Shown: piece by piece, positions 16,466-51,244 of the stretch
How the letters are laid out: each line of letters opens with the position of its first letter
Position numbering within the stretch: position 1 is the stretch's first letter
Source of the DNA: Minisyncoccota bacterium
Lineage (GTDB): Bacteria > Patescibacteriota > Minisyncoccia > Phycocordibacterales > SBAW01
Assembly (NCBI GenBank): GCA_035546615.1
Contig: DASZWM010000003.1
Coordinates: forward strand, 32,001 to 96,000
Direction: 5' to 3'
DNA: 64,000 nt
Made by a program: the position numbers and the translations under genes
Notes under the pieces: generated by a model
Seen by the model: the letters and a program-made list of their open reading frames with translations, nothing else
Databases searched by the model: none
What the model was told of the DNA's origin: nothing

Positions 16466-16966
16466 CTAGCGCTGGTTCTCCTCCAGCAGGCGCTTGTCCT
16501 CTTCGGTCGGCTCCAAATCCAGGCATACCGAGTTCAGGCAATAGCGCTTGCCGGTCGCGGTAGGGCCGTCGTCAAACACGTGGCCCAGATGGCTGCCGCA
16601 GTTGGCGCACAATACCTCCGTGCGGTGCATGCCGTAGGCGTTATCGGCCTTAAACTCCACCGCGCCCGGAAGCGCCTGGTCGAACGACGGCCAGCCGGTG
16701 CCGGAGTCGAATTTCGCGCTGGAGGCGAAAAGCGGATTGTTGCACGCCGCGCAGCGGTACACGCCGTCGCGATCTTCGTGCAGGAGCTTGCCGGAGAACG
16801 GCGCCTCCGTCCCGCGCTCGCGCAATATCGCGTACTGCTCGGGCGTGAGCTTCTGCTTCCAGCCCTCCTCGTCGCGCGGCATGTCGTCGTGGTCGTGATG
16901 TGTATTGGAATTAGTCATAGGTTTTCTGTCGAATCGATAGGTATAAGTATACAAACTCCTACTCAT
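16466..16966 (-). CDS. msrB: Peptide-methionine (R)-S-oxide reductase MsrB
   Basis: SelR domain with CxxC...CxxC zinc site and catalytic RYCLNSVCL. An alternative ATG lies at 16918. Confidence 0.9.
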
Positions 16967-17657
16967 AGACTACTTCTGTTATCTCCGCGTGCGGGTTCGG
17001 TATGACGCACAGGACCTTTCCGGCTATCTTAAAGTCCTCGCGGAGCACTATCGGGCGGTACTTGGGGTTCTTGGATTCCGGATACAGTATCGTGACGCCG
17101 TTCTTCTTTTCGTAGCGCTTCACCGTCACCATATCGCCCACTATCGCCGCCACCCGGTCGCCGTTCTGCGCCTCGTCGGTAAAGCGGATAAGCACGTAGT
17201 CGCCCGGATTGATGCCCGCGTCCTGCATGGAGTCGCCTACCGCGCGCACCGCCACGATGCCGCCCTCTTCCCCCGCGCCGCGCGGAGCAACCTCCTCGCC
17301 GCGGTACGGCCCGTCGGCTATGGTCTTGTCCACTTCAAGGAATTCGTCGTACTGCTCCTGCGCAAAAAGGCTCAGGTCGTCGCAGCCGACGTTCGCCACC
17401 ACCGGCACGCTGACCGTCCGGTTGGGCATGCCGTCGGAATCGGCATTGCGCAGCTCTATGTTGCGGCGCGCGTGCTTGCGGCGGTAGATGTAGCCTTTTT
17501 CCTCCAGCGCCTCCAGATACTGCGTCACGGTGCGCAGCGACTTGAGTTTGAGGCTCGCCTTGAGCTCCTCCAGGGTCGGCGGCTCCTTGTGCTTGAGCAT
17601 GTAGGCCTCAAGCGTATCGAGCACGTGCTGCTGTTTAATTGTGAGTGCGTGCTGCAT
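16959..17657 (-). CDS. lexA: LexA repressor (S24 peptidase)
   Basis: N-terminal wHTH, Ala-Gly cleavage region VANVGCDD, and a GDSM...K catalytic dyad region. Confidence 0.95.
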
Positions 17658-17760
17658 ACCTACATACTAAACCAGGTCTTTTTTGTGTGCAATACACAAC
17701 ATACACAAGTTGGGGATAACCGGCGCGACAAGCGTGCACACAAGTCTTTAGGCTACAGAG

Positions 17761-18381
17761 ATGGCTATCGCCCGCACCGCAGACCAGGGGAAACTATTTG
17801 ACTTGCCGCTGTCGCTCCCCAACGGATTGGTCTACCGGCCGGATTTCCTGACGCCCGAGGAAGAAGAACTGTTGCTGGCGTACGTAGAGAATCTGCCGAT
17901 GGTGCACCCCACATTCGAAGAGCACGAGGCAAAACGGCGGCTTGCCGCGTTCGGCTGGAGCTACGACTTTGAGCGCGAAAAGCTTATCGAGGGCCCGCCG
18001 CTTCCGAAATTCCTGCATCCGGCGCAAAGGAAGATCGCCAAATGGCTCGGTATCTCCCCCGCCCGGGTGGTTGAGGCGCTGGTGCAGGAGTACACGCCGG
18101 GCTCGGCCATAGGCTGGCACCGCGACAACGAAAAGTTCGAATCTATCATCGGCATTTCGCTCGCGGGCTGGTGCAGGATGCGTTTCAGGCCCTTGGGCCT
18201 GAAACAATCAAGAAGTAGGCCGCTCGCAGCGAAAGATGTTGTGGCTCTGGAGCTCGAACCCCGCTCCTGCTACATCATGCAGAAGGACGTGCGGTGGAAG
18301 TGGCAGCATTCGGTGGCGCCCGTCAAAACCCTGCGCTATTCGATAACGTTCCGGACCCTGCCGGAGGGGTTTCGGCCCTAA
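17761..18381 (+). CDS. alkB: AlkB-like 2OG-Fe(II) oxygenase (alkylated DNA repair dioxygenase)
   Basis: IGWHRDNE (HxD) ... H ... RYSITFR motifs. It is divergent from lexA. Confidence 0.85.
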   Translation: MAIARTADQGKLFDLPLSLPNGLVYRPDFLTPEEEELLLAYVENLPMVHPTFEEHEAKRRLAAFGWSYDFEREKLIEGPPLPKFLHPAQRKIAKWLGISPARVVEALVQEYTPGSAIGWHRDNEKFESIIGISLAGWCRMRFRPLGLKQSRSRPLAAKDVVALELEPRSCYIMQKDVRWKWQHSVAPVKTLRYSITFRTLPEGFRP

Positions 18382-21193: not shown

Positions 21194-21242
21194 AGGCTCC
21201 TATTATACATATCCGGTACTTTCGAAACTAGAAGCCTGGCTC

Positions 21243-21524
21243 TTATTTTAGCTTTTTGCAAAAAGCTAAAATACTTTCGGCGCGGGGCGTGAGGGTATGG
21301 CGTACGTTCATCCCGTCGCTGCGCTTGTAGAGGAGCCCGGCGATAGCCATCTTGCGCAGATGGTCGGAAGCGTTCATATATCCCATCCCCAGCTTTTCCG
21401 CTATCCCCTCGATCGAGAGGCCCGGGGTCTGCTTGAGCAGATCCAATACCTGAAGGCGCCTATAGCTGGCAAAGCCTTTCACTATCCGCTCAAGCCGGCG
21501 ATATTCGCCCTGGTCTTTCGGCAT
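21243..21524 (-). CDS. ArsR/SmtB family transcriptional regulator
   Basis: HTH RLQVLDLLKQTPGLSIEGIAEKLGMGYMNASDHLRKM. The track start at 21560 is TTG; an ATG lies at 21524. Confidence 0.8.
   Translation of the reverse strand: MPKDQGEYRRLERIVKGFASYRRLQVLDLLKQTPGLSIEGIAEKLGMGYMNASDHLRKMAIAGLLYKRSDGMNVRHTLTPRAESILAFCKKLK
21246..21271. repeat. 26-bp perfect palindrome TTTTAGCTTTTTGCAAAAAGCTAAAA (copy 1 of 3) overlapping arsR stop
   Basis: Seen directly. Related copies lie at about 21551-21565 and 21609-21634. Confidence 0.8.
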
Positions 21525-21550
21525 GGCGAAGACTATATACGGTGTTTTAC

Positions 21551-21565
21551 GTTTTTGCAAAAAGC
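21551..21565. promoter_or_regulatory. Palindrome copy 2 (GTTTTTGCAAAAAGC) about 30 nt upstream of arsR ATG; candidate operator
   Basis: Seen directly. Confidence 0.5.
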
Positions 21566-21608
21566 TTTGATAAAAGGGCGGGGCGGGCGGGAACGAAAGG
21601 CTTTATCA

Positions 21609-21634
21609 CGGCTTTTTGCAAAAAGCTAAAATAA
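21609..21634. repeat. Palindrome copy 3 (GGCTTTTTGCAAAAAGCTAAAATA)
   Basis: Seen directly. Confidence 0.7.
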
Positions 21635-21647
21635 AAGAAATACATAA

Positions 21648-21671
21648 GGGAGGGAGGGAGGGAGGGAGGGA
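21648..21671 (+). repeat. (GGGA)x6 microsatellite / G-quadruplex-forming motif
   Basis: Seen directly. G3-N1 repeated six times. Confidence 0.9.
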
Positions 21672-21694
21672 GCCTTTACCTTTTTGCTTTTATT

Positions 21695-22105
21695 TTATCT
21701 GATGCGGATCCGGCGGAGGGCTTTGCGGGCTTTTTTGTAGTCCGGAATGGTCTCTTCGACCAGGGCCCAGAAGGCGGGGCTGTGGTTCATTTCCTTCAGG
21801 TGGCACAGCTCGTGGGTTACGACATATTCGGCCAGGCGCGGCGGCAAGAAAAGGAGGCGGTAGTTGAAGTTGAGGTTGCCGTGCTCCGAGCAGCTCCCCC
21901 ACCGCGAACGGCTGTTCTTTATGAATACCCGGCGCACGGCGTAGTCGTAGTGCGCGTTGAGGCGCGCGATGAGCGCATGGACAAGCGCGCGAGCCTCTTC
22001 CTTATACAGCTGGAACTTCCGCGAACTAGCCGCCGAAGCCGGGCGTCGTCTCCGTACCCGCCGCCGATATACGATTTTGTATCCAAACACCGAGGTATTG
22101 TACAA
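21695..22105 (-). CDS. YgjP-like metal-dependent hydrolase (DUF45/M48-like, HExxH)
   Basis: WGSCSEHGNLNFNYRLLFLPPRLAEYVVTHELCHLKEMNHSPAFW. TTG start, Arg-rich N-terminus. This is the last GC-rich gene before the island. Confidence 0.6.
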   Translation of the reverse strand: MYNTSVFGYKIVYRRRVRRRRPASAASSRKFQLYKEEARALVHALIARLNAHYDYAVRRVFIKNSRSRWGSCSEHGNLNFNYRLLFLPPRLAEYVVTHELCHLKEMNHSPAFWALVEETIPDYKKARKALRRIRIR

Positions 22106-22141
22106 CCTTACTTAATGGCAGGCTCAGATATAGATTTATAA

Positions 22142-22540
22142 CTACAAAATTGAGATAACTTTCTTAACGACGGAGTCTGAAGCACTCTTGAGTCGATGTT
22201 CCCATATTCTTAATACCTTCCAATTCATACTTTTTAATTGTTTATTAACCAATCTATCTCTTTTCTTATTTCTTTCTATTTTGTTAGTCCAATATGCGCG
22301 ATTTGTCTTTGGAACTCTACAGTGAGTCTTACATCCGTGCCAAAAACAAGAGTCAATGAAAATTGCTGTCTTAGAAACAGAAAAAACAATATCAGGTCTG
22401 CCTGGCAATTTTGCCACATGAGTTGTAAACTTTAGTTTACTTTTTTTCAGTTGCTTCTGAAAAGATTTTTCTATACCTGAATTTCTACTCTTAATGAGAC
22501 GCATTATTTCGCTGCGTCTTCCAGAAGATACATTGTCCAT
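22142..22540 (-). CDS. vsr: Very short patch repair endonuclease Vsr
   Basis: FIDSCFWHGC...P.TN..YW..KI..N..RD motifs. Confidence 0.9.
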   Translation of the reverse strand: MDNVSSGRRSEIMRLIKSRNSGIEKSFQKQLKKSKLKFTTHVAKLPGRPDIVFSVSKTAIFIDSCFWHGCKTHCRVPKTNRAYWTNKIERNKKRDRLVNKQLKSMNWKVLRIWEHRLKSASDSVVKKVISIL

Positions 22541-22544
22541 GCCT

Positions 22545-23612
22545 TTATTCTTCTATATCCCAACCTGTTGGAAGTGTGATTTTGGTATAGGCTCTTTCTT
22601 TGATAAAAGGGACAATCTCTGCGCTCGAAGGAAACTCTGCGTCAAATTCTCTCGTTAAATCACTTAACAAAGTGCCAGCAAGTCGTTCTCTATATTCTTT
22701 ACTGAGGCAAAGAGTATACCAGTCATGCAAATCTTTAAGAGTAATTATTCCTTGCACACGCTCAATAATCCCGAGCTGTTGTAGCAGGGCCTCAATAGGT
22801 TTCTTTTCTGCGTCTCGACAAACAATTACAATCCTGTCCGCTTCGATTCCCTCGACAATTCCTTCGGTTACTTCAGGAGTAAGTGTAAGGTGTTTTACCT
22901 GGATAGCTGTTCCAAAATTTGCCCACATATCTAATCCCCTATCCGCCGCATTCGTTACGCCAACTCTAAAAAGGGCTGCGGGCATAGCTACTTGAGTCTT
23001 TCTGGCATCTATGCCTAAAACCATTTTTATAAAACCTTCAAAATCAGTAAGTATTTCTTTGTCTTCATTTTTAATCGAAAGGGTGATTTCCGCTTTTAAT
23101 GCTCGTACAATAGCGGAAAAAAGAGCATGCACTGCTATTTCATATATTTTATCTGTGCTTCGTCTCAAGCCAGGACTTGATGTAAAAAGTTCCACTAATT
23201 CCATTATGGAAAAAGTGTCCACTGTTGACTGTTCGATATAGTCTCTTACCCGATGAACAGATAGTAACTTATTTTGTAAAGCTTTATAAATATAAGCCTC
23301 TACTCCGCCCTTACTTGTTGTATTTATTTTTCCTAACACTGCCAATAGTTGGGGCGGCATAGCATTAGGCTCAAAGATATTATCTTGGTACTTTGCGCTA
23401 GAAGTACTGCTCCTCCCAACAAGTAAGGTGGAGACTTCATCTCTCCAACGTTTAGAGACAGAGCGATAACTTTCTAGATCAGTTAGTTCTAGCTTTTTCT
23501 TAGTTCTATGATAGAAAAGTATCTCCGCTATCTGTATAGGTTTATAGAAGTGCACTCTGGCCTTCTTTATAACTGAATCCAGAGCCGCTTTTGCTTCTTC
23601 AGCCATTGACAT
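22545..23612 (-). CDS. Putative type II restriction endonuclease (family unassigned)
   Basis: The 355-aa ORF lies between the C5-MTase and vsr and overlaps the MTase stop by 14 nt. No family was identified by eye. Confidence 0.5.
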   Translation of the reverse strand: MSMAEEAKAALDSVIKKARVHFYKPIQIAEILFYHRTKKKLELTDLESYRSVSKRWRDEVSTLLVGRSSTSSAKYQDNIFEPNAMPPQLLAVLGKINTTSKGGVEAYIYKALQNKLLSVHRVRDYIEQSTVDTFSIMELVELFTSSPGLRRSTDKIYEIAVHALFSAIVRALKAEITLSIKNEDKEILTDFEGFIKMVLGIDARKTQVAMPAALFRVGVTNAADRGLDMWANFGTAIQVKHLTLTPEVTEGIVEGIEADRIVIVCRDAEKKPIEALLQQLGIIERVQGIITLKDLHDWYTLCLSKEYRERLAGTLLSDLTREFDAEFPSSAEIVPFIKERAYTKITLPTGWDIEE

Positions 23613-24621
23613 ACGCCCGTTCTACCATATTTATGTCTTTTCCGCTAAACAATTCAGTTTGTTCAATAAAAGGAACCGGGTCTTTCGACATTGCTTCAAC
23701 CATTGCGTGGGCCACTGCTTCCATCTGAGGAACCACTACAGCATTACCAGCTTGCTTCCGGATTTGCTGGTCAGCAACAACAAATTTATATGAATCGGGA
23801 AAACCCTGTAATCTAAACATCTCTCTAGGAGTCAGTCTTCTTTCTCCATTTACAATAAGATAGTTATATGAACCATTAGCCCTAAGAGCGCATGAATAAG
23901 CATTCACGCCTAGGTTTCCAGACTTATTTTCGTGCAAGATTAACGGACGAGAATGAAGTTCTTTGTGTTGTTCTTTTAATTGTCTCTGGACTTTCTGCAA
24001 CATATAATCGCTAAGAAAGTGTTTTTTATCGACCTCATTATCAGGCTCAAGGATGTCTTCAAGAGTTTTCTTTTTTCCCCTCCCTTTGGTAGGAAATTCA
24101 AAAGGGTAGTTTTCTCTAAAACCTACAATCATTATTCGCTCTCTCTTTTGCGGAACGCCAAAATCTAGACCATTTAAAACTTTAAAGTGCACAAAATAAC
24201 CTAGTTTTCTTAAACTATTTAGAATTACTGAAAACGTCCTTCCTTGATCATGATTGGTAAGTTGTTTTACATTTTCCAAAAATAGAGCTTTTGGTTTCTT
24301 TGCCTTTAGAATTCTCTCAACATCAAAAAACAACGTGCCTCTTGTTTCAGAGAAACCTTTCATATTCCCCATGATGCTAAAAGCTTGGCATGGAAAACCG
24401 CCTGTCAAAATATCATGGTCAGGCACATCTTTTGCAACTATTTTCGTTATATCTCCATCTGGCTGGTCGCCGAAATGATTCTTATACATCTTCTGCGCAG
24501 CTTCATCCCATTCTGATGTAAAAACACATTTACCTCCTGCCGCTTCAAAACCAAGTCTAATGCCTCCAATTCCTGCAAAGAGATCGATAAAAGTAAATTT
24601 ATTCTTATTCGTTGGAGCCAT
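23599..24621 (-). CDS. dcm: DNA (cytosine-5)-methyltransferase
   Basis: Motif I FIDLFAGIGG, motif IV GGFPCQAFS, motif VI ENV, motif VIII QRRERI-like. Confidence 0.95.
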   Translation of the reverse strand: MAPTNKNKFTFIDLFAGIGGIRLGFEAAGGKCVFTSEWDEAAQKMYKNHFGDQPDGDITKIVAKDVPDHDILTGGFPCQAFSIMGNMKGFSETRGTLFFDVERILKAKKPKALFLENVKQLTNHDQGRTFSVILNSLRKLGYFVHFKVLNGLDFGVPQKRERIMIVGFRENYPFEFPTKGRGKKKTLEDILEPDNEVDKKHFLSDYMLQKVQRQLKEQHKELHSRPLILHENKSGNLGVNAYSCALRANGSYNYLIVNGERRLTPREMFRLQGFPDSYKFVVADQQIRKQAGNAVVVPQMEAVAHAMVEAMSKDPVPFIEQTELFSGKDINMVERAYVNG

Positions 24622-24851
24622 AGAGCAATATATTTTAACACCTATTTTAAGCTTGCTATATTTTTAATAATAGCACTGAAATCTATATTTATACACAATA
24701 TACACAAGTCTTGGGGATAACTTTAGTGAGGGCCGTTTTTGGTCCAGGATAGCCGTATCCGCCAGCCGATAAAAATAGAGTAAGGGGGTAAAGATCAGCA
24801 ATCGTGGGATGAGCGTGTCTAATAGTCACCTAAGGATTTATAGCCATAAGG

Positions 24852-25193
24852 CTATTGTGGCAAACCCTTAATTTTGTTTCTGAAGAAATTAAATCGCATC
24901 TTAGCATAGTCCCAAAGAAAAGAGCAGAACGACTTATTTGGATGTCTTTTTATTTCACGCAAGTTCTCGAAAGCATAATTAAGTATATCTATAAATAATA
25001 ACCCTGGTACAACACCCAATGCGAATATATACCAATCAGAAAAACGTGTTTTTAACAAACTGTAAGTCGCATTTACTGCAATTCCAAGAACTACCGCAAG
25101 CGTCGCACCGAGTATCACAAATGCCCACTGTATTTGTAGACTTCTTTCCTCTTGTAAATCACCCTTGTTCATGGCGAATATATCTAATAACAA
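24852..25193 (-). CDS. Small two-TM membrane protein (candidate effector of the Ubl/E1 module)
   Basis: Two hydrophobic helices (WAFVILGATLAVVLGIAV; WYIFALGVVPGLLFIDIL). TTG at 25193 or ATG at 25172. It lies 8 nt after the upstream stop. Confidence 0.5.
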   Translation of the reverse strand: MLLDIFAMNKGDLQEERSLQIQWAFVILGATLAVVLGIAVNATYSLLKTRFSDWYIFALGVVPGLLFIDILNYAFENLREIKRHPNKSFCSFLWDYAKMRFNFFRNKIKGLPQ

Positions 25194-25201
25194 GTAAAAA
25201 A

Positions 25202-25612
25202 TTATTCGAAGAAGCTACGCAATTGGACTAATATCCAGTTTCCAAATCGTCGCCACCATGACAGGGAGGAATGAATAAAGTATGCATCCTTGATGGTATC
25301 GTCATATTCTCGCCCGTGGCGTATCTGTTCTCGAGTCATCTTCGACGCCCAAATCACTTGATTTTCAATAATCCAATAATGTGACTGACAAGGATGATTC
25401 CAGTTTCCTATTGAAGGACGTAGCGAGACCACCCCCTGCCAATCAACTAGCGTATATTCGGTCTTACGGAGAGGGGTAACGATTTTAGTGCCACAACTGC
25501 AACAGCACAAATGGCTCGCGGTTCCGAAACGTCGTGAGATATATAGAACACCACTCTCAAGCTCTCTTGGTATGAACTCAACATATTCAGGACGCACCAA
25601 CTCTGTCTTCAT
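25202..25612 (-). CDS. Cys-rich Zn-ribbon-like protein (DUF6527-like, recalled)
   Basis: HLCCCSCGTK...NHPCQSH cluster. The ATG at 25612 overlaps the E1-like gene stop (ATGA-type coupling). Confidence 0.5.
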   Translation of the reverse strand: MKTELVRPEYVEFIPRELESGVLYISRRFGTASHLCCCSCGTKIVTPLRKTEYTLVDWQGVVSLRPSIGNWNHPCQSHYWIIENQVIWASKMTREQIRHGREYDDTIKDAYFIHSSLSWWRRFGNWILVQLRSFFE

Positions 25613-26808
25613 ATACAATCCTCTTTTGTAAGGGCGTGGGTCGCAATCGTGTACAGCGAATGACGTTCTCGCACATCATCAGCATAAAAACCACACAATT
25701 GCTTCCATTTTCCCACAGCCATGGCAGCATTTAGCATATTTAGGTCCGCAACCTGCATATTACGGTACACCGCCTCGGCCGGCACTTTTGCAAATGAAAC
25801 AACTTCCGCAATATGTCCATGATGGTCGGGTGTTCCAACTGTAAAGCGACACTGTCCGCGCAGAGACGCCTGATTATCGAGTGCCAAGTCTATTCCAACG
25901 TCTATGAACGGCACACCAAGAGCAATAAGGCCATTAAGTATGTTCTTCCGGCTCTCTCCGTCGTCGATAGCAACAAACACGAAGTCGAACCCGGACAGCT
26001 CGTGGAGATGCGCGTCCTGGACATAGTAGGGATGACGCTTCAAGCCCTTGTGTATACGTTCGTATATACCACTGAACCAATCCACTTTTAGTGGATTGTT
26101 AAGCTCCTGCTTCATCGGAGCACCCGGTGCTCTAAACGCGTTGTGGAGTTCGAACGTATCCCCATCGAAAATGTGGATTTCTTTCACCGGCGTCTTAGCA
26201 ACAAGGTCGAGAATATACGAACCAGTACCACCTAGTCCTATAATCGCCACCCGACTTGCAAGGAGTTTCGCCGTGGCCGCTCCAATACCAGCACGGGTTG
26301 TTGCCATATCAGGATAATGGAATGCGAGTTCCTGAGCTTCGACTACCGCCGGTACTGGTTTTTCACTTCGTGGATCGCAAGTCCGATCAATTGCTTGAGC
26401 TTCGTGCCAAATCAGACGAACATATGTCCAGATTTTTTCGTAGTAGTCGGCATACTTGCGCTTATCAGCGTGCACACGCGAGAAGGCGACAGTCGTCTTA
26501 ATCCCATCGCCCTTATCCTCCTCAGCGTTGTTCGAAATCATCTCCGTCATTAGTTGACCATCCGCGTTGTGCGGGGGTTCTCCAATCCACCAACACTGAT
26601 GGTTGGAACATGGATTCACTGTCTTTCCGGCCGCATCAATTTCAAGTGGGCAATAGAGAATTCCAGGCACTATTTTGCCTTCAGAGGTAACAGCAGGAAT
26701 TCCCTCAATTAAAAGATGAGAGGCAGTCCCTTGAATGACCCGGAGACGAAAACCTTCCGCCTCCAACTTTGCCAAATCGGCATTATGACTTATCCGTATT
26801 TCTGACAT
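25609..26808 (-). CDS. E1-like ThiF/MoeB-fold enzyme with ~165-aa N-terminal domain of unknown fold
   Basis: VAIIGLGGTGSYILDLVAKTPVKEIHIFDGDTFELHNAFR is a ThiF nucleotide-binding motif. The N-terminal domain has conserved-looking C/H residues (YCPLE, NPCSNHQCWW, PPHN). Confidence 0.8.
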   Translation of the reverse strand: MSEIRISHNADLAKLEAEGFRLRVIQGTASHLLIEGIPAVTSEGKIVPGILYCPLEIDAAGKTVNPCSNHQCWWIGEPPHNADGQLMTEMISNNAEEDKGDGIKTTVAFSRVHADKRKYADYYEKIWTYVRLIWHEAQAIDRTCDPRSEKPVPAVVEAQELAFHYPDMATTRAGIGAATAKLLASRVAIIGLGGTGSYILDLVAKTPVKEIHIFDGDTFELHNAFRAPGAPMKQELNNPLKVDWFSGIYERIHKGLKRHPYYVQDAHLHELSGFDFVFVAIDDGESRKNILNGLIALGVPFIDVGIDLALDNQASLRGQCRFTVGTPDHHGHIAEVVSFAKVPAEAVYRNMQVADLNMLNAAMAVGKWKQLCGFYADDVRERHSLYTIATHALTKEDCI

Positions 26809-27040
26809 CGAAGTTCATATGATCGACCACATCTACACTTTGGCCCCGGCGAAGCGATCCTTCGTGTCCACCTGGCTTAGTCCATGAAACGCTGTAGCGA
26901 ACATCGCCTCCGAACGGACCAGTTGGGAATGCGAGCTTGATGACTTGCTCGTAGCTAATATCGTGTTCACCCCACTTCTCTTGAATACCGTTCACAACAA
27001 TGCTTATGGTGTGTCCATGCCCTTTATTATCGTCTGCCAT
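26783..27040 (-). CDS. Multiubiquitin-like beta-grasp protein (85 aa, no C-terminal GG)
   Basis: ISIVVNG...ISYEQVIKLAFP...RYSVSW...GQSVDVVDHMNFDVR matches, from memory, the multiubiquitin domain pattern of prokaryotic E1/E2 operons. It overlaps the E1-like gene start by 26 nt. Confidence 0.5.
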   Translation of the reverse strand: MADDNKGHGHTISIVVNGIQEKWGEHDISYEQVIKLAFPTGPFGGDVRYSVSWTKPGGHEGSLRRGQSVDVVDHMNFDVRNTDKS

Positions 27041-27224
27041 ATAATTTTAATTGTCGGCTTTTTAATTTAAGTGCGGCACCGGTCGACCGCACTTGTATCG
27101 TACACCCATTTCTGATACCCTTGCAAGGTAACTAGATGTATCAAATGTTACCTAAAGTACCATATTTGTTATATCTGATACCTGTTGTTACAACCTATAA
27201 CAAGTTACGCACAGATTTCAAATC

Positions 27225-27584
27225 ATGAGAAAATCATCCGCTACAATAAACAATGAAAGCAGATCCACAGAGCTTGAAATCCGGAAAGAGATTGGCAGAC
27301 GTATCGCTGAAATGCGTAGCAAACTGGGGCTTACAGCTCGCCTTGTTGCCAAAGAACTTCATGTCTCACGCGAAGCCATTACTCACATTGAAACAGGGCG
27401 AAACAATATATCTGCCGTATCGCTGTGGGAATTGGCGACTCTCTTCCATTGTGATATTGCTGATTTTTTCCCTGATATTCCTAATGGATATTCTTTAACT
27501 AGGGTCGATATTAATAAAGTAGCACAAATGAGTGGAAAGACAGGGGCGGCATGGGCTGAAAAGATTTTTGGGAAAAAGAAATAA
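27225..27584 (+). CDS. XRE-family HTH transcriptional regulator (CapH/ImmR-like)
   Basis: HTH_3 signature IGRRIAEMRSKLGLTARLVAKELHVSREAITHIETGRNNIS. Confidence 0.85.
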   Translation: MRKSSATINNESRSTELEIRKEIGRRIAEMRSKLGLTARLVAKELHVSREAITHIETGRNNISAVSLWELATLFHCDIADFFPDIPNGYSLTRVDINKVAQMSGKTGAAWAEKIFGKKK

Positions 27585-27588
27585 ATAT

Positions 27589-28083
27589 ATGATGTCAGAA
27601 AGAATTGAGAAAAAAGCGGAGGAAGTCTTAAGCGCACTGAATGTTAAGTCAATACCTATCTCTGTTGAAGAAATCGCGAATCAATTAAAGATCAAGATAG
27701 GAAGAGCACCTAGTAGTGAATTTTCTGGAATGTTGATTCGAAAAGATGGTCGAGCACTTATGGGTATAAATAACAGTGAAGGCACTGCGAGACAACGATT
27801 CACTATTGCGCATGAACTTGGGCATTATTTCTTACATCCACAAAATGATACTTTTGTAGACTATAGGCAGAACGAAAAAGAACCAAGAAATCATAGAGAA
27901 CGAGAGGCTGATATGTTTGCAGCAGCACTCTTAATGCCTAGGAAAGAAGTAACAAAAGACTTTCAGAAAATTGTTAGGAAAGGATTTTCAGAAATTGAAC
28001 TTCACAAACTGGCAGGAAAATATGAAGTGAGCGACAAAGCAATGAGATTTAGGTTAGTAAACTTAAATATGCTATTAGGTTAA
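27589..28083 (+). CDS. ImmA/IrrE family Zn-metallopeptidase (CapP/ImmA-like)
   Basis: HELGHYFLH HExxH motif in the COG2856 fold context. It lies immediately downstream of the XRE gene. Confidence 0.85.
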   Translation: MMSERIEKKAEEVLSALNVKSIPISVEEIANQLKIKIGRAPSSEFSGMLIRKDGRALMGINNSEGTARQRFTIAHELGHYFLHPQNDTFVDYRQNEKEPRNHREREADMFAAALLMPRKEVTKDFQKIVRKGFSEIELHKLAGKYEVSDKAMRFRLVNLNMLLG

Positions 28084-28087
28084 GATT

Positions 28088-28348
28088 TTATTGTCTACTC
28101 CCTTGTGATCCTAATCTATCCGTAAAAGGTCCCTCACGATGGGCCGCCGGATCTACATCCTTTTTTGTAATAACCTGGGGAAAGCGGGTATTTTCTTCAA
28201 TCTGCTCTAGTAACGTGACTATTCTGTTCAATTTCCAGTACCAGGTAAGGATTTCCCTGATCAGGAGGAATATCAGAGCGCCCACGCATAGGACAAAAAC
28301 GATATTTGGTAGCTGGGACCAGTAATATTGAAATAAGGGTTGAAGCAT
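28088..28348 (-). CDS. Small membrane protein (one TM helix), downstream partner of AbrB-like gene
   Basis: IVFVLCVGALIFLLI helix. Coordinates are from the track. Confidence 0.4.
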   Translation of the reverse strand: MLQPLFQYYWSQLPNIVFVLCVGALIFLLIREILTWYWKLNRIVTLLEQIEENTRFPQVITKKDVDPAAHREGPFTDRLGSQGSRQ

Positions 28349-28351
28349 ATA

Positions 28352-28540
28352 TTACTTCTTCCAGTCGCGGATTATCAGCTTCTTTCTCTTCAGATCCACC
28401 TCTACGGTGAGCTTTTGGCGCTCTTTCCACTTGAACTTGCGGATAGCCTCCACCGGAAGCGCGACCGTATAGGTACTTCCCCGCCCCGTCTTGGTGAGCT
28501 TGCGGACCTGCTTTTTCTGCCCCGCCTTCGGCCGTGCCAT
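28352..28540 (-). CDS. AbrB/MazE/SpoVT-like small DNA-binding protein (candidate antitoxin)
   Basis: VRKLTKTGRGSTYTVALPVEAIRKFKWKERQKLTVEV resembles the looped-hinge helix fold. Confidence 0.45.
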   Translation of the reverse strand: MARPKAGQKKQVRKLTKTGRGSTYTVALPVEAIRKFKWKERQKLTVEVDLKRKKLIIRDWKK

Positions 28541-28600
28541 GCGGATATGATACCACCGAACTCCTGAGCTAACTCAAGAGTTAGCTCAGGAGTTAATTAA

Positions 28601-28627
28601 AAACCGGCGCCTGGGGCGCCGGTTTGG
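28601..28627. terminator. Bidirectional intrinsic terminator at the island's right edge
   Basis: AAAAACCGGCGCC-TGGG-GCGCCGGTTT. Confidence 0.6.
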
Positions 28628-28642
28628 CCAAGGTTGGCCGGA

Positions 28643-28918
28643 TTACTGAAGCGTGGGGCTGGAGCGGGTCTCGCTTATAGCCCAGTTGCCGTACAGGGTA
28701 TCGAGCTCGAGCTTGAGCTGCACGACCCGCTCGACCATCCCGACGTCTACGACGCGGAGATTAATCATAAAGGCCTCGGCATTGCGTATCGCCGCTTTGA
28801 TCTCCTTCTTCTTCGCGATGATCTCGGGCGGGAGCCGCCGCTTCCCGCTGTGGAAATCTCCGGCAAGCCGGATCATTGTCCGCGCCTCGTCGGGAGTAAG
28901 TACCCGATACTGATCCAA
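28643..28918 (-). CDS. Hypothetical protein
   Basis: A 91-aa ORF with protein-like composition in a GC-rich context. Confidence 0.4.
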   Translation of the reverse strand: MDQYRVLTPDEARTMIRLAGDFHSGKRRLPPEIIAKKKEIKAAIRNAEAFMINLRVVDVGMVERVVQLKLELDTLYGNWAISETRSSPTLQ

Positions 28919-28983
28919 AGCCTCTCTCCTGTCTTATAAGCGGCCACCCGCTTTCGGGTACGATACTAGCATCGAAAAAAGAA

Positions 28984-29016
28984 ATAAAACAGGCCCGCGG
29001 CTTGCGCCGCGGGCCT
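28984..29016 (-). terminator. Intrinsic terminator downstream of 29040..29465
   Basis: GGCCCGCGGC-GCAA-GCCGCGGGCC followed by TTTTATTTCTTTTTT on the minus strand. Confidence 0.6.
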
Positions 29017-29039
29017 CTTGTCTGCCTAACTCCGTGGAG

Positions 29040-29465
29040 TTAGGACCTCTTCCCTGCCGGCTCCATGTAGAAGATCCAGAACTCCAGCGACGAATTGCCG
29101 ACATCCACCATCCAGCCGTGGGCGTACTCGTCGCCGTTATTCACCACGCCGTAGTCGATGTTTACTTTCCCGACCTGGACCGGACCGACCTGGTTGAGGC
29201 CGCAGCGGGGATAGCCGCGAGCGTCGACCTCCTGGTGATACACGGTGTATAGCGCCGTGCTTTCGGCCGGATCCCGATAGCGGGCGTCCAGGAGGGTCTT
29301 CAGATCTTCCTGAGATTTGCACCACAGGACCGGCTGGCGGAACCAACCGTAAAATTCCTCGCCCGGCGGCTGCGCCGAGACGGGAGCTACGAGGCACGCC
29401 ATGCACGCGAGAGCAATCAAAGAACGGTTGAACATCTTGGACCTCGTTGGTTGGTCCTTGGACAT
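29040..29465 (-). CDS. Secreted hypothetical protein
   Basis: Signal peptide MFNRSLIALACMACLVAPVSA from the internal ATG at 29435. Confidence 0.5.
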   Translation of the reverse strand: MSKDQPTRSKMFNRSLIALACMACLVAPVSAQPPGEEFYGWFRQPVLWCKSQEDLKTLLDARYRDPAESTALYTVYHQEVDARGYPRCGLNQVGPVQVGKVNIDYGVVNNGDEYAHGWMVDVGNSSLEFWIFYMEPAGKRS

Positions 29466-29530
29466 CCTCTCTGCCTACACCTTTTTTCGTCCTTGGGAGG
29501 ACATACCGATTGTATGACGTCTTGTGCCGA

Positions 29531-29559
29531 TGGCAAATAGTCCGCGCTTTTGCTAGAGT
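29531..29559 (+). promoter_or_regulatory. Promoter copy 1: TGGCAA-N17-TAGAGT
   Basis: Seen directly. Shares GCGCTTTTGCTA with copy 2. An AGGAGA SD and an ATG at 29590 follow. Confidence 0.5.
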
Positions 29560-29589
29560 ACTGGCTGGCACGAACAACAGGAGACGCGG

Positions 29590-29961
29590 ATGATCAATTG
29601 CCTTATGGTCCGGGGCACCGGCATCACGAACAGCATGTCGAGCCTTCTCTACCGGACCGCCATGCAGATGGTGCAGGAAAAGAAAAGCTCGAAGAAGTTC
29701 AAGGGCGGCGACTGCCAGGGCGTCCTTTCGACAGAATGGAAGTACGCCGGCATGGGCACGATATCGGGCCTGCAGTTCAGCGCGAAGGTGGAGAGCGCGG
29801 CGGGTACGACCGAGGTTACGTTCATCATCCGCTCGCTGGACCTGGACGAACCGGATGACGACTCGTGGGAAGCGGTACCCGACCAGGAGACGTTCGACCG
29901 CTACGCGGTTGCGGACGCGCTCGAAGAGCGGGACGCGATTCCCAGATCCAGGCTCAACTGA
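29590..29961 (+). CDS. Hypothetical protein
   Basis: ATG with a good SD (AGGAGA). 123 aa. Confidence 0.45.
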   Translation: MINCLMVRGTGITNSMSSLLYRTAMQMVQEKKSSKKFKGGDCQGVLSTEWKYAGMGTISGLQFSAKVESAAGTTEVTFIIRSLDLDEPDDDSWEAVPDQETFDRYAVADALEERDAIPRSRLN

Positions 29962-30020
29962 TGCGGATTGCTCCCGCCGAAAAAGCCCCGCGCGCCCCAC
30001 GGCGCGCGGGGCTTTCTGCA

Positions 30021-30049
30021 TGGCAAACGGCCCGCGCTTTTGCTACAGT
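30021..30049 (+). promoter_or_regulatory. Promoter copy 2: TGGCAA-N17-TACAGT
   Basis: A near-identical 35-nt element (ATGGCAAA..CCGCGCTTTTGCTA.AGTAC.GG) to copy 1. Confidence 0.5.
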
Positions 30050-37377: not shown

Positions 37378-39147
37378 TTACGCGCGGCGCTTTTCCTGCG
37401 GCTTCTTGCGCAGGCGGGTGCTGACCGGCGTTATTTCAAGATACTCGTCTTCGGCCATAACCTCAAGCCCGCGCTCGATGGTAAGGGTGTACGGCGGCAC
37501 CAGATTGATAGCCTCGTCGGAGCCGGAAGCGCGCATGTTGGTAAGCTGCTTGCCCTTGGTCGGGTTCACTTCCATCTCCTCGCCCTTGGAGGTATTGCCG
37601 ATGACCTGGCCCTCATACACTTCGGTCGCGGGGGAAATATAGAGCACGCCGCGGTCCTGGAGGTTCCAGAGGCTGAAGCCAAGCGCCTTGCCTGAGGCCA
37701 TGGACACCATGGAGCCCACGACGCGCTTTTGGATCTCGCCGGCGTACGGGCGGAATTCGATGAAGCGGCTCGAAAGGATGCCTTCGCCCTTGGTGTCGAG
37801 CACGAATTGCGAGCGGTAGCCCAGCAGGCCGCGGGTGGGGCCCTCAAATATCATGCGCACCGTCTCGCTGTGCTGGCGCATATCCTTGAGGATGCACTTG
37901 CGCTGGCCCAGGCGCTCGATGATGGGGCCCTGGAAGTCCACCGGCGTGTCGATGACGATTTCCTCAAACGGCTCGTAGCGGACGCCGTCGCGCTCTTCAA
38001 AAATAACGTGCGGCTGGGAGACCTGGATCTCGTAGCCCTCGCGGCGCATATTCTCCAGGAGAATCGCGATATGGAGCTCGCCGCGGCCGGAGACATGGAA
38101 GGTTTCGGAAGTGCCGAAGTCCACCTGGAGGCCGACGTTGACCTCAAGCTCGTGCTCGAGGCGCTCGCGGATCTGGCGCGAGGTAACGAACTTGCCTTCG
38201 CGGCCCGCGAACGGCGAATTGTTGACGAGGAAGTCCAGCGTAATGGTCGGCTCGTCGATGGCGATGGCCGGAAGCGGCGTGGCCCCGGCGTCGCTGGTAA
38301 CGGTCTCGCCGATGTAGATGTCCGGAAGGCCCGCTACAAGCACGATGTCGCCGGCCTCGGCGCTCGGTATCTCTATCTTCTGGAGGCCCTTGAACGAAAA
38401 GAGTTTCGTTACCTTGCCCTGGCGCATGGCGCCGTCGGGTTTCTTGATGAAAACGCTGTCGCCTACCGACACGGAGCCCTGGTAGATGCGGGCGAACGCG
38501 AGGCGGCCGAGGAAGTTGTCGTAGCCGAGGTTGAACGGCTGCATCATGAGCGCGCCGCCCTGCACCACATCGGCGTTGGCGGGCTTCACGTGCTCCAATA
38601 TTACGTCCAGAAGCGGCATGAGGTCCTTCGAGTCGTCGGCGAGCTTGCGCTTGGCGATACCCTGGCGGCCGATGGCGTACACTACGGGGAAATTGCTCTG
38701 GTCATCGTTTGCGCCGAGCTCGAGGAAGAGCTCCAATACCGCTTCCTCGCACTTGGCGGGATCGGCGGCCGGCTTGTCTATCTTGTTGATGACGACGATA
38801 GGCTTGAGGCCGAGCTCGAGCGACTTCTTGAGCACGAAGCGCGTCTGCGGCATCGGGCCCTCCTGGGCGTCCACGACAAGGAGCACCGAGTCGATGGAGC
38901 GCAGCACGCGCTCGACCTCGGAGCCGAAGTCGGCGTGGCCGGGGGTGTCCACGATGTTTATCTTGGTGCCCTTGTACGGCACCGAGGCGTTCTTTGCGTA
39001 AATAGTGATACCGCGCTCGCGCTCGAGGGTGTTGGAGTCCATAGACACGCCTTCCTCCCCCACGCCGGTCTGCTTAAGCAAAGCGTCGGTTAAGGTGGTC
39101 TTGCCGTGGTCCACGTGCGCGATGATAGCTATATTGCGGATTTCCAT
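37378..39147 (-). CDS. typA: Translational GTPase TypA/BipA
   Basis: AHVDHGKTT, DTPGHADF, NKIDK G-motifs. The track ORF is extended; the ATG is at 39147 (MEIRNIAIIAHVDHGKTT). Confidence 0.95.
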   Translation of the reverse strand: MEIRNIAIIAHVDHGKTTLTDALLKQTGVGEEGVSMDSNTLERERGITIYAKNASVPYKGTKINIVDTPGHADFGSEVERVLRSIDSVLLVVDAQEGPMPQTRFVLKKSLELGLKPIVVINKIDKPAADPAKCEEAVLELFLELGANDDQSNFPVVYAIGRQGIAKRKLADDSKDLMPLLDVILEHVKPANADVVQGGALMMQPFNLGYDNFLGRLAFARIYQGSVSVGDSVFIKKPDGAMRQGKVTKLFSFKGLQKIEIPSAEAGDIVLVAGLPDIYIGETVTSDAGATPLPAIAIDEPTITLDFLVNNSPFAGREGKFVTSRQIRERLEHELEVNVGLQVDFGTSETFHVSGRGELHIAILLENMRREGYEIQVSQPHVIFEERDGVRYEPFEEIVIDTPVDFQGPIIERLGQRKCILKDMRQHSETVRMIFEGPTRGLLGYRSQFVLDTKGEGILSSRFIEFRPYAGEIQKRVVGSMVSMASGKALGFSLWNLQDRGVLYISPATEVYEGQVIGNTSKGEEMEVNPTKGKQLTNMRASGSDEAINLVPPYTLTIERGLEVMAEDEYLEITPVSTRLRKKPQEKRRA

Positions 39148-50974: not shown

Positions 50975-51244
50975 GCAAAAAGTATAGCACCGAGTTTTGC
51001 ATTCGGGTTCCCTGCGAATAGTCCGGCTTCGTCACCCTGTTCCTCAGCTGCCAGACTTGAGATAGAACCGGTCGCGGGTACGGTGTCCAGATTTGCTGCG
51101 GGTGTAGGAATGTCACTTGTGTATTTTTTGTGGCTTAAAATATAGGGCTCGGTTTCTATTTTAGTTCGAATCTCAGGGGGGTCAAAGAAAAAGCCGCCCG
51201 ACGAACTGAGCCGTCGGGGGCTTTGTTCGCGGGCGGTCGCTGCT

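What the first reader, a model, noticed from the sequence alone, without database searches (positions are those of the whole stretch)
24686..24725. Site B of the shared lexA-promoter motif, upstream of the island dcm-REase-vsr operon
See the site A entry. The second copy of the ATACACAA tandem repeat plus TTGGGGATAAC lies about 70-100 nt upstream of the dcm start codon (24621, minus strand) and downstream of the Ubl/E1 operon stop.

This suggests co-option of a host regulatory site by the island, or deliberate mimicry.
Basis: seen in the sequence. Interest (0 to 1): 0.6.

Follow-up and report, generated by a model that had tools for sequence, protein, structure and literature searches.

The report
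SOS operator on restriction-modification promoter
The island's restriction-modification operon carries a full copy of the three-part DNA site found at the host's lexA promoter, and unrelated restriction-modification operons in other candidate-phyla bacteria carry it too, so these defence genes appear wired to the DNA-damage (SOS) repressor.

Summary
Site B (24691-24720, dcm-sense strand TTATCCCCAA-gac-TTGTGTAT-a-TTGTGTAT) matches site A at the lexA promoter (17692-17719) at 27 of 28 aligned bases, plus a 2-nt indel.

It is neither chance nor an att scar. All nine distinct lexA loci retrieved by protein homology alone (62-91% LexA identity) carry the module just before lexA, immediately upstream of or overlapping the inferred -35 position. 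In one relative it fills the 80-nt gap between lexA and a divergent umuD/umuC-like pair. I read it as the SOS (LexA) operator of this Patescibacteria clade.

A metagenome scan for the module found lexA in 2 of 12 distinct loci. Six loci were restriction-modification operons of unrelated enzyme families. The closest dcm homolog (79%) has the module; others (74-76%) lack it.

Site B lies 18 nt upstream of an extended -10 (TGCTATTAT), the geometry seen elsewhere. The likely mechanism is LexA repression of dcm-HaeII REase-vsr.

LexA binding is inferred, not shown. The clade's LexA also has Cys-Asp where E. coli has the Ala-Gly cleavage site.

Interest is moderate to high.

The parts
24711..24720 (-). 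Site B unit H1, TTATCCCCAA. It is inverted relative to H2/H3, since ATCCCCAA resembles the reverse complement of TTGTGTAT. It also matches the DnaA-box consensus TTATCCACA at 8 of 9 positions.
   Evidence: H1 is TTATCCACAA or TTATCCCCAA in 15 of 19 aligned lexA and RM sites. The gap to H2 is 3 nt here and 1-4 nt in genuine lexA promoters.
24700..24707 (-). Site B unit H2, TTGTGTAT.
   Evidence: It is identical to H2 of the lexA promoter (17701-17708).
24691..24698 (-). Site B unit H3, TTGTGTAT, exactly 1 nt after H2 (9-nt period).
   Evidence: The H2-n-H3 spacing is invariant in all 19 sites.
24667..24675 (-). Candidate extended -10 (TGCTATTAT) of the operator-controlled promoter P1. Its hexamer starts 18 nt after H3, so H3/H2 would cover the -35 region.
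   Evidence: Read from the sequence. The same geometry, with a -10 hexamer 18-22 nt after H3, holds at lexA (window, L085, L086, L002, L222) and at RM loci L212, L215, L216, L217, L220 and L221. The simple consensus scan did not call it.
24632..24640 (-). Second candidate extended -10 (TGTTAAAAT), ending 10 nt before the dcm ATG. This would be a near-leaderless promoter P2, which the operator would not occlude.
   Evidence: Read from the sequence. Similar TGGTAAAAT-type elements abut the start codons in L220 and L221. It is unresolved which -10 is used.
23599..24621 (-). dcm (C5 cytosine methyltransferase), first gene of the operon downstream of site B.
   Evidence: PF00145, E=8e-98. PADLOC MTase_II.
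22545..23612 (-). HaeII-family restriction endonuclease. It overlaps the end of dcm by 14 nt.
   Evidence: PF09554, E=4e-127. PADLOC REase_II.
22142..22540 (-). vsr (very-short-patch repair endonuclease), last gene of the operon.
   Evidence: PF03852, E=7e-18. PADLOC Vsr.
17692..17719 (-). Site A, the same module at the lexA promoter: H1 at 17710-17719, H2 at 17701-17708, H3 at 17692-17699. It is followed by TTGCAC (17687-17692), a 17-nt spacer, TAGTAT (17664-17669) and the lexA ATG 6 nt later, implying a leaderless mRNA.
16959..17657 (-). lexA, encoding the presumed binding protein. It has a LexA_DNA_bind domain and a Peptidase_S24 domain.
   Evidence: The best named match is LexA of Candidatus Paceibacterota.
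17761..18381 (+). AlkB-like 2OG-Fe(II) oxygenase, divergent from lexA across the 103-nt operator region. A fourth half-site-like TTGTGTGC lies at 17736-17743 (minus strand) near its start.
   Evidence: The arrangement and the extra half-site are conserved in L082.

Best explanation
Site B is a complete copy of the SOS operator module used by this Patescibacteria lineage: TTATCC(A/C)CAA, a 1-4 nt gap, then TTGTGTAT-n-TTGTGTAT. It sits on the promoter of the island's dcm-HaeII REase-vsr operon.

Proposed mechanism:
1. The host LexA repressor binds the TTGTGTAT direct repeat. H1 may act as a third, inverted contact.
2. The repeat lies where RNA polymerase would contact the -35 region of the promoter whose extended -10 (TGCTATTAT) begins 18 nt downstream.
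3. The RM operon is therefore held low in undamaged cells and released together with lexA and repair genes when LexA is inactivated.

Steps shown: the sequence module, its conservation at lexA promoters, its recurrence and fixed orientation and geometry in front of RM operons, and the absence of any other regulator gene in those RM loci.

Steps inferred: LexA is the binder, P1 is the active promoter, and LexA is inactivated by DNA damage.

The module most likely travelled with the RM cassette between Patescibacteria that share LexA specificity. It was probably not copied from this host's own lexA promoter.
For: 1. All nine distinct lexA loci fetched by LexA protein similarity alone carry the module directly before lexA. 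These are L082, L085, L086, L227, L229, L230, L002, L003 and L004, at 62-91% identity. L003, L004 and L230 carry degenerate versions.
2. Across about 260 kb of host-type DNA (the window plus relatives' loci), the tandem at 3 or fewer mismatches occurs at lexA promoters and site B. The only other matches are two 3-mismatch hits in the window, neither at an identifiable promoter.
3. In L229 the module fills the 80-nt gap between lexA and a divergent Peptidase_S24 (umuD-like) plus IMS (umuC-like) operon, the archetypal SOS pair. In the window and L082 it is shared with a divergent alkB-like repair gene.
4. The -10 hexamer starts 18-22 nt after H3 in most sites, so the repeat lies immediately upstream of or overlapping the -35 position.
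5. Erill and co-workers cite the Patescibacteria as one of several cases in which LexA evolved recognition of a direct-repeat motif (PMC7739468, citing Sanchez-Osuna et al. 2017).
6. An exact-pattern metagenome scan returned 15 loci, 12 of them distinct. Two are lexA. Six are RM operons confirmed by Pfam: C5 MTase plus D12 MTase, NgoPII REase plus C5 MTase, N6_N4 MTase, N6_N4 MTase plus a MutH-like protein (presumed REase), C5 MTase, and N6_N4 MTase. All have the module oriented toward the first gene.
7. The C5 MTases behind these modules are only 30-41% identical to each other.
8. Those loci come from Patescibacteria, for example Ca. Daviesbacteria.
9. The closest dcm homolog (L232, 79%) has the module with the same 3-nt H1-H2 gap.
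Against: - No binding or expression data exist.
- The published Patescibacteria LexA consensus could not be read, so identity with it is unverified.
- H1 is a perfect DnaA box (TTATCCACA) in most sites, never has the ATACACAA form of H2/H3, and has variable spacing to H2. It could therefore belong to a different protein.
- A second candidate -10 (TGTTAAAAT, 24632-24640) lies next to the dcm ATG. If that is the only active promoter, the module would sit at about -60 to -90 and could not repress by occlusion.
- Other dcm-HaeII(-vsr) loci at 74-76% identity lack the module (L207, L209-211, L233), so it is not needed for the operon to function.
- The clade's LexA has invariant Cys-Asp where E. coli has the Ala84-Gly85 scissile bond. 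Asp at that position matches the G85D substitution of PDB chain 1jhf_A, which I recall, without having checked it here, as the non-cleavable lexA3 (Ind-) allele. Damage-induced cleavage is therefore uncertain.
- recA and other core SOS genes could not be examined in this genome.
Confidence: 0.66

Rival explanations
1. The module, or at least H1, is bound by a host factor other than LexA. The most obvious candidate is DnaA, because H1 equals the DnaA-box consensus TTATCCACA. On this reading lexA and RM promoters are coupled to replication status rather than, or in addition to, LexA autoregulation.
For: H1 is TTATCCACA(A) in 11 of 19 sites and TTATCCCCA(A) in 5 more. It never takes the ATACACAA form of the other two units. 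The TT that extends it to a full DnaA box is conserved. Its distance to H2 varies from 1 to 4 nt while the H2-H3 spacing is fixed.
Against: The H2-H3 tandem is not a DnaA box; it has 2 mismatches to TTATNCACA. DnaA-box-like 9-mers are not enriched in the window: 10 found against 6.8 expected. The module co-occurs with lexA, umuDC-like and alkB-like genes, which points to SOS control. An autoregulatory operator at lexA is the near-universal rule.
Confidence: 0.12
2. Site B is a non-functional passenger. On this reading it is a piece of a portable RM promoter cassette, or of a foreign lexA promoter, that came in by horizontal transfer and has no regulatory effect in this host.
For: Several homologous dcm-HaeII operons work without it. 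A second -10 next to the ATG could drive the operon on its own. The island is recent and low in GC.
Against: Both TTGTGTAT units are perfect and H1 matches the host's own variant. Orientation and distance to the extended -10 match those of the other operons. A host LexA whose own promoter has identical H2 and H3 units would be expected to bind it whatever its origin.
Confidence: 0.12
3. The two copies are attL/attR-type direct repeats, or a recombination scar, left by a mobile element that integrated at the lexA promoter.
For: The two copies are in direct orientation 7 kb apart, and one of them lies inside a foreign island.
Against: The genes between the copies (alkB-like, PPIase, GIY-YIG, DUF5652, Lipoprotein_15, PHA_gran_rgn, HTH) are conserved next to lexA, in the same order, in the relative L082, which has no island. 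Much of this set also flanks lexA in L085 and L086. The module is present at lexA in every relative, with or without an island. No integrase lies nearby. Each metagenomic RM locus has one copy only.
Confidence: 0.03
4. The similarity between the two sites is due to chance.
For: None beyond the AT-rich, low-complexity look of the repeat. In AT-rich viral contigs the bare tandem is common.
Against: Shuffles gave a mean of 0.06 matches even with 3 mismatches allowed. None of the viral tandems has H1. Identity extends over 28 aligned positions.
Confidence: 0.01

Closest known systems
LexA (SOS) boxes, specifically the direct-repeat LexA motif cited for the Patescibacteria (Sanchez-Osuna, Barbe and Erill 2017, as cited in PMC7739468 and PMC8565304)
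   Same: It is conserved at lexA's own promoter, it has a direct-repeat architecture, it overlaps promoter elements, and it is shared with umuDC-like and other repair genes.
   Different: The published consensus and regulon could not be read here, so equivalence is unverified. Here the module has a third, inverted unit that coincides with a DnaA box, and its most frequent non-lexA targets in the metagenome scan are RM operons.
LexA boxes carried by mobile genes, such as integron integrase promoters, colicin operons and temperate phages like GIL01 (PMC4551915). Apart from GIL01, these are from my own knowledge.
   Same: Horizontally moving genes carry the operator of a chromosomal, host-encoded repressor. 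They are therefore silent until the SOS response, in any host that shares the LexA specificity.
   Different: The cargo here is Type II restriction-modification, with the methyltransferase usually first. The operator comes in an approximately 85-nt cassette that is near-identical in front of enzymes only 30-40% identical to each other.
Controller (C) protein and C-box regulation of Type II RM systems
   Same: A short repeated operator lies on the promoter of an RM operon and sets the expression level.
   Different: There is no C gene in this operon or in the metagenomic RM loci, so the regulator must be host-encoded. The same site occurs at lexA.
CapH/CapP (XRE repressor plus IrrE-like protease) DNA-damage control of defence operons
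   Same: It couples an anti-phage system to DNA damage. A capH/capP-like pair sits in the same island next to the ubiquitin-like operon.
   Different: CapH/CapP is self-contained and encoded next to its target. Site B depends on the chromosomal LexA and shows no sequence relation to the capH-proximal intergenic region.
DnaA box (TTATCCACA)
   Same: H1 equals the consensus in most sites and matches it at 8 of 9 positions in site B.
   Different: It is a single box, always paired with the TTGTGTAT tandem at lexA and RM promoters, not in an oriC-like cluster.

Membership tests
LexA (SOS) operator of the host clade | The same sequence is present at the lexA gene's own promoter (autoregulation) and is conserved among relatives. 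| tested here: met
   The window and nine distinct lexA loci fetched by protein similarity carry it.
LexA (SOS) operator of the host clade | It is present at other canonical SOS genes. | tested here: inconclusive
   It is shared with a divergent umuD/umuC-like operon in L229 and with alkB-like in the window and L082. recA, uvrA and similar genes were not available in any fetched locus.
LexA (SOS) operator of the host clade | It overlaps RNA-polymerase contact elements of the regulated promoter. | tested here: inconclusive
   An extended -10 begins 18 nt after H3, as in the other loci. However, a second -10 lies next to the ATG, and the consensus scan called neither. No transcription start data exist.
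LexA (SOS) operator of the host clade | It matches the experimentally validated LexA-binding consensus of the phylum. | not testable with these tools
   The 2017 paper is not held. Only its description as a direct-repeat motif is available.
LexA (SOS) operator of the host clade | LexA binds it in vitro, and the downstream genes are induced by DNA damage. | not testable with these tools
   This needs EMSA or footprinting and expression assays.
C-protein-controlled RM system | A small HTH controller gene lies in or next to the RM operon, with C-boxes upstream of it. | tested here: not met
   The operon is dcm-REase-vsr only. The nearest HTH_3 gene (27225-27584) is 2.6 kb away and paired with capP. 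The metagenomic RM loci have no HTH gene next to the module.
att site flanking an integrated element | The repeats bound foreign DNA, the site is single in genomes lacking the element, and a recombinase lies nearby. | tested here: not met
   Host genes conserved in L082 lie between the copies. No recombinase was found.
DnaA box | The 9-mer TTATNCACA. | tested here: inconclusive
   Site B's H1 is TTATCCCCA (8 of 9). H1 is a perfect box in 11 of 19 related sites. DnaA binding cannot be tested here.

The most novel reading that the evidence does not exclude
Across the Patescibacteria (CPR), restriction-modification operons of many unrelated families are placed under the SOS repressor by a portable promoter cassette of about 85 nt. 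The cassette comprises a conserved 27-nt 5' element, an H1-H2-H3 operator and a -10. RM expression, and hence methylation and restriction capacity, would then be a DNA-damage-inducible trait in these reduced-genome bacteria. The controlling LexA also lacks the canonical Ala-Gly cleavage site, which would imply a non-standard induction mechanism.
Probability: 0.4. Interest if true: 0.75.

Novelty: new variant of a known kind. Interest (0 to 1): 0.6.

Why it matters
Regulation of defence systems is an active question. So far, DNA-damage coupling has been shown mainly for self-contained regulators such as CapH/CapP and WYL proteins.

Here a chromosomal global repressor's operator appears to be a standard fitting of RM cassettes that circulate in an entire uncultivated radiation. 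This gives a directly testable prediction: LexA EMSA on a 30-bp site.

It would also explain how incoming RM systems are kept non-toxic in any host that shares the LexA specificity. The same island pairs this with a capH/capP-controlled ubiquitin-like system, so both defence modules may answer to DNA damage by two different routes.

Finally, it identifies a practical marker, the module itself, for finding SOS-controlled cargo in Patescibacteria metagenomes.

Tried and rejected
- **Viral contig scan for the bare tandem.** It returned at least 120 AT-rich hits, including giant-virus tandem arrays, and none had H1. This was uninformative.
- **Genome-contig scan with a LexA alignment.** Only L002-L004 were useful.
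- **Att-site or recombination-scar model.** Rejected by synteny.
- **C-protein model.** No C gene is present.
- **Literature.** The Patescibacteria LexA paper is not held. Searches for LexA together with RM, Parcubacteria or ydiO found nothing relevant. My recollection that B. subtilis LexA controls the BsuM methylase operon could not be confirmed.
- **Rfam on the RM loci with the conserved 27-nt flank.** The only hit was an unrelated tRNA.
- **Weak 3-mismatch tandem matches at 38774-38790 and 51117-51133.** Neither lies at an identifiable promoter.
- **Simple sigma-70 consensus scan.** It called no minus-strand promoter at either site. The promoter assignment therefore rests on cross-locus conservation.
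- **Regex search for RecA, UvrA, UvrB, DinB, RuvB and DnaA signatures in the window.** It found nothing.
- **L208 (dcm 75%).** It has one TTGTGTAT next to TTGGGATAA in a different arrangement and at a different distance. I treated this as not comparable.

Full report
**1. Observation**

Site B is present as described. On the + strand, ATACACAA-t-ATACACAA-gtc-TTGGGGATAAC occupies 24691-24721. Site A at 17692-17720 reads ATACACAA-c-ATACACAA-g-TTGGGGATAAC. The 18-mer core matches exactly only at these two places in the window, and 100 shuffles gave a mean of 0.06 matches even with three mismatches allowed.

Pfam confirms the surrounding genes:
- lexA, 16959-17657, minus strand.
- An alkB-like oxygenase, 17761-18381, plus strand.
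- vsr (22142-22540), a HaeII-family REase (22545-23612) and dcm (23599-24621), all minus strand.
- A Multi_ubiq / DUF6791-ThiF / DUF6527 operon, 24852-27040, minus strand.

The RM and ubiquitin-like genes lie in a stretch of 36-50% GC within a genome of about 60% GC. The host is a Candidatus Paceibacterota / Adlerbacteria-like member of the Patescibacteria.

**2. Anatomy**

Read on the strand of lexA and dcm, the element is TTATCCCCAA (H1), a gap of 1 nt (site A) or 3 nt (site B), TTGTGTAT (H2), 1 nt, and TTGTGTAT (H3).

H1 is an inverted, imperfect version of the H2/H3 unit, since ATCCCCAA resembles the reverse complement ATACACAA. In most relatives H1 reads TTATCCACAA.

At lexA, H3 abuts TTGCAC, followed by 17 nt, TAGTAT, 6 nt and the ATG. 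This implies a leaderless transcript. At dcm, an extended -10 (TGCTATTAT, 24667-24675) begins 18 nt after H3. A second one (TGTTAAAAT, 24632-24640) ends 10 nt before the ATG.

**3. The module is native to lexA promoters**

I retrieved LexA homologs by protein similarity and fetched their contigs. Nine distinct loci carry the module directly in front of lexA:

| Locus | LexA identity |
|---|---|
| L085 | 91% |
| L082 | 90% |
| L086 | 81% |
| L227 | 74% |
| L229 | 69% |
| L004 | 64% |
| L230 | 63% |
| L003 | 63% |
| L002 | 62% |

L222 was found separately, through the motif scan. In all of them the H2-n-H3 spacing is invariant, the H1-H2 gap is 1-4 nt, and a -10-like hexamer lies 18-22 nt after H3. 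Site B's 3-nt gap also occurs in the genuine lexA promoters of L222 and L227.

Across these loci plus the window (about 260 kb), the tandem at three or fewer mismatches occurs at lexA promoters and at site B. The only other matches are two 3-mismatch hits in the window that lie at no identifiable promoter.

In L229 the module fills the 80-nt gap between lexA and a divergent Peptidase_S24 plus IMS (umuD/umuC-like) operon. In the window and L082 it is shared with the divergent alkB-like gene.

Erill and co-workers cite the Patescibacteria as one of several cases in which LexA evolved recognition of a direct-repeat motif (PMC7739468). The original 2017 paper is not held. I therefore read the module as the SOS operator of this clade. 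This reading is an inference.

**4. It is not an att scar**

blastn shows that the genes between sites A and B down to about 22054 are syntenic with L082, which has no island. The island replaces about 1.2 kb of L082 between window positions 22055 and 30037. No recombinase is present.

**5. The module recurs in front of RM operons**

One exact-pattern scan of the metagenome collection (ATACACAANATACACAAN{1,3}TTGKGG) returned 15 loci, 12 of them distinct.
- Two are lexA promoters (L222 and L225, the latter being the same contig as L085).
- Six are RM operons, each with the module oriented toward the first gene and confirmed by Pfam:
  - L212/219/224: C5 MTase plus D12 MTase.
  - L214: NgoPII REase plus C5 MTase.
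  - L216: N6_N4 MTase.
  - L217/226: N6_N4 MTase plus a MutH-like protein, presumed to be the REase.
  - L220: C5 MTase.
  - L221: N6_N4 MTase.
- L215 has the same cassette before a gene with no Pfam match.
- L213, L218 and L223 are unclear.

The C5 enzymes are only 30-41% identical to one another and to the window's dcm. The loci belong to Patescibacteria; one is Candidatus Daviesbacteria.

Among close homologs of the window's dcm:
- The closest (L232, 79%) carries the module with a 3-nt gap and a leaderless -10.
- L207, L209-211 and L233 lack it. L233 is a dcm-HaeII-vsr operon at 75% identity.

The operator is therefore a frequent but optional fitting of RM cassettes. It probably entered this genome with the island rather than being copied from the host's lexA promoter.

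**6. Mechanism proposed**

LexA bound to H2-H3, and possibly H1, covers the -35 region of promoter P1 and represses dcm-REase-vsr. Loss of LexA would release it together with lexA and repair genes. Possible benefits, which are speculation:
- Low, non-toxic RM expression in any recipient that shares the LexA specificity.
- More methylase, and Vsr, when repair synthesis creates unmethylated DNA.
- More restriction when infection generates an SOS signal.

**7. Caveats**

- LexA binding has not been shown.
- H1 equals the DnaA-box consensus and might belong to another protein.
- The ATG-proximal -10 could make the operator irrelevant for occlusion.
- Alignment to E. coli LexA structures places invariant Cys92-Asp93 at the Ala84-Gly85 scissile bond, while Ser143 and Lys180 are kept. 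Asp at that position matches the G85D substitution seen in PDB chain 1jhf_A. From memory that substitution is the non-cleavable lexA3 (Ind-) allele. Whether and how this LexA is inactivated by damage is therefore open.

**8. Comparison and novelty**

The site is an instance of a known kind, a LexA operator. It also parallels LexA boxes on integron integrases, colicins and phages, which I cite from my own knowledge apart from GIL01 (PMC4551915).

What I could not find described is SOS-operator control of RM operons as a recurrent feature of the Patescibacteria. The same applies to the near-identical promoter cassette, including a 27-nt element GTAGCTAAATCCTTCATATTTGATAGG, in front of unrelated RM genes. 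The unread 2017 paper may already list such targets, and I lowered the novelty and interest scores for that reason.

Noticed in passing
window 27225-28083 (+), with the divergent operon at 24852-27040 (-): An HTH_3 gene (capH-like, PADLOC E=3.5e-5) overlaps a Peptidase_M78 gene (capP, E=4.8e-38). They are divergent from the Multi_ubiq / DUF6791-ThiF E1 / DUF6527 / 113-aa operon. This looks like a CapH/CapP-type DNA-damage switch on a ubiquitin-like defence system, so both modules of the island may respond to DNA damage by different routes. The intergenic region 27041-27224 has a repeated TCTGATACC and a GGTAAC...GTTACC inverted repeat.
   Followed up: partly
window 16959-17657 (LexA residues 88-95, VANVGCDD): The clade's LexA has invariant Cys-Asp aligned with the E. 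coli Ala84-Gly85 self-cleavage bond. Asp at that position matches the G85D substitution of PDB chain 1jhf_A, which I recall as the non-cleavable lexA3 allele. The catalytic Ser (GDSM) and Lys (TVKR) are conserved. The LexA is possibly cleaved differently or not cleavable.
   Followed up: partly
L212 (also L219, L224), L214, L215, L220 and L232, immediately 5' of H1: A conserved 27-nt element, GTAGCTAAATCCTTCATATTTGATAGG, precedes the operator in five distinct RM loci whose upstream genes differ and whose methyltransferases are only 30-40% identical to each other. It has no conserved ORF and no Rfam match. It is absent from site B and from lexA promoters. It may be the end of a portable RM promoter cassette.
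   Followed up: partly
L220 and L221, around the start codons: A C5 MTase gene and an N6_N4 MTase gene share TGGTAAARTTATGGAACARCTAHCWCTTATG and the N-terminus MEQL(T/S)LM. The conserved cassette therefore appears to run into the first codons, or into a short leader ORF.
   Followed up: no
window 21240-21637: There are three copies of the palindrome-containing repeat (A)GCTTTTTGCAAAAAGCT(AAAATA), at about 21251, 21550 and 21611. They flank a small ArsR/HTH_5-type gene that is syntenic with L082, and are probably its operators. A (GGGA)n run lies at 21650-21675.
   Followed up: no
window 17655-17669, and several lexA and RM loci: The -10 hexamers lie only 6-10 nt before the start codons at lexA in the window, L082, L086, L222 and L229, and at the RM genes of L215, L216, L217 and L232. 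This implies leaderless mRNAs are common in these Patescibacteria.
   Followed up: no
window 22055-30037: The synteny break relative to L082 is larger than the low-GC island. The segment from about 28.4 to 30.0 kb has host-like GC and encodes proteins with no Pfam match (86 aa, 101 aa and 294 aa).
   Followed up: no
L229 1761-2574: A relative's lexA neighbourhood also contains an HTH_31/HTH_3 plus Peptidase_M78 pair, so capH/capP-like pairs recur in this lineage.
   Followed up: no
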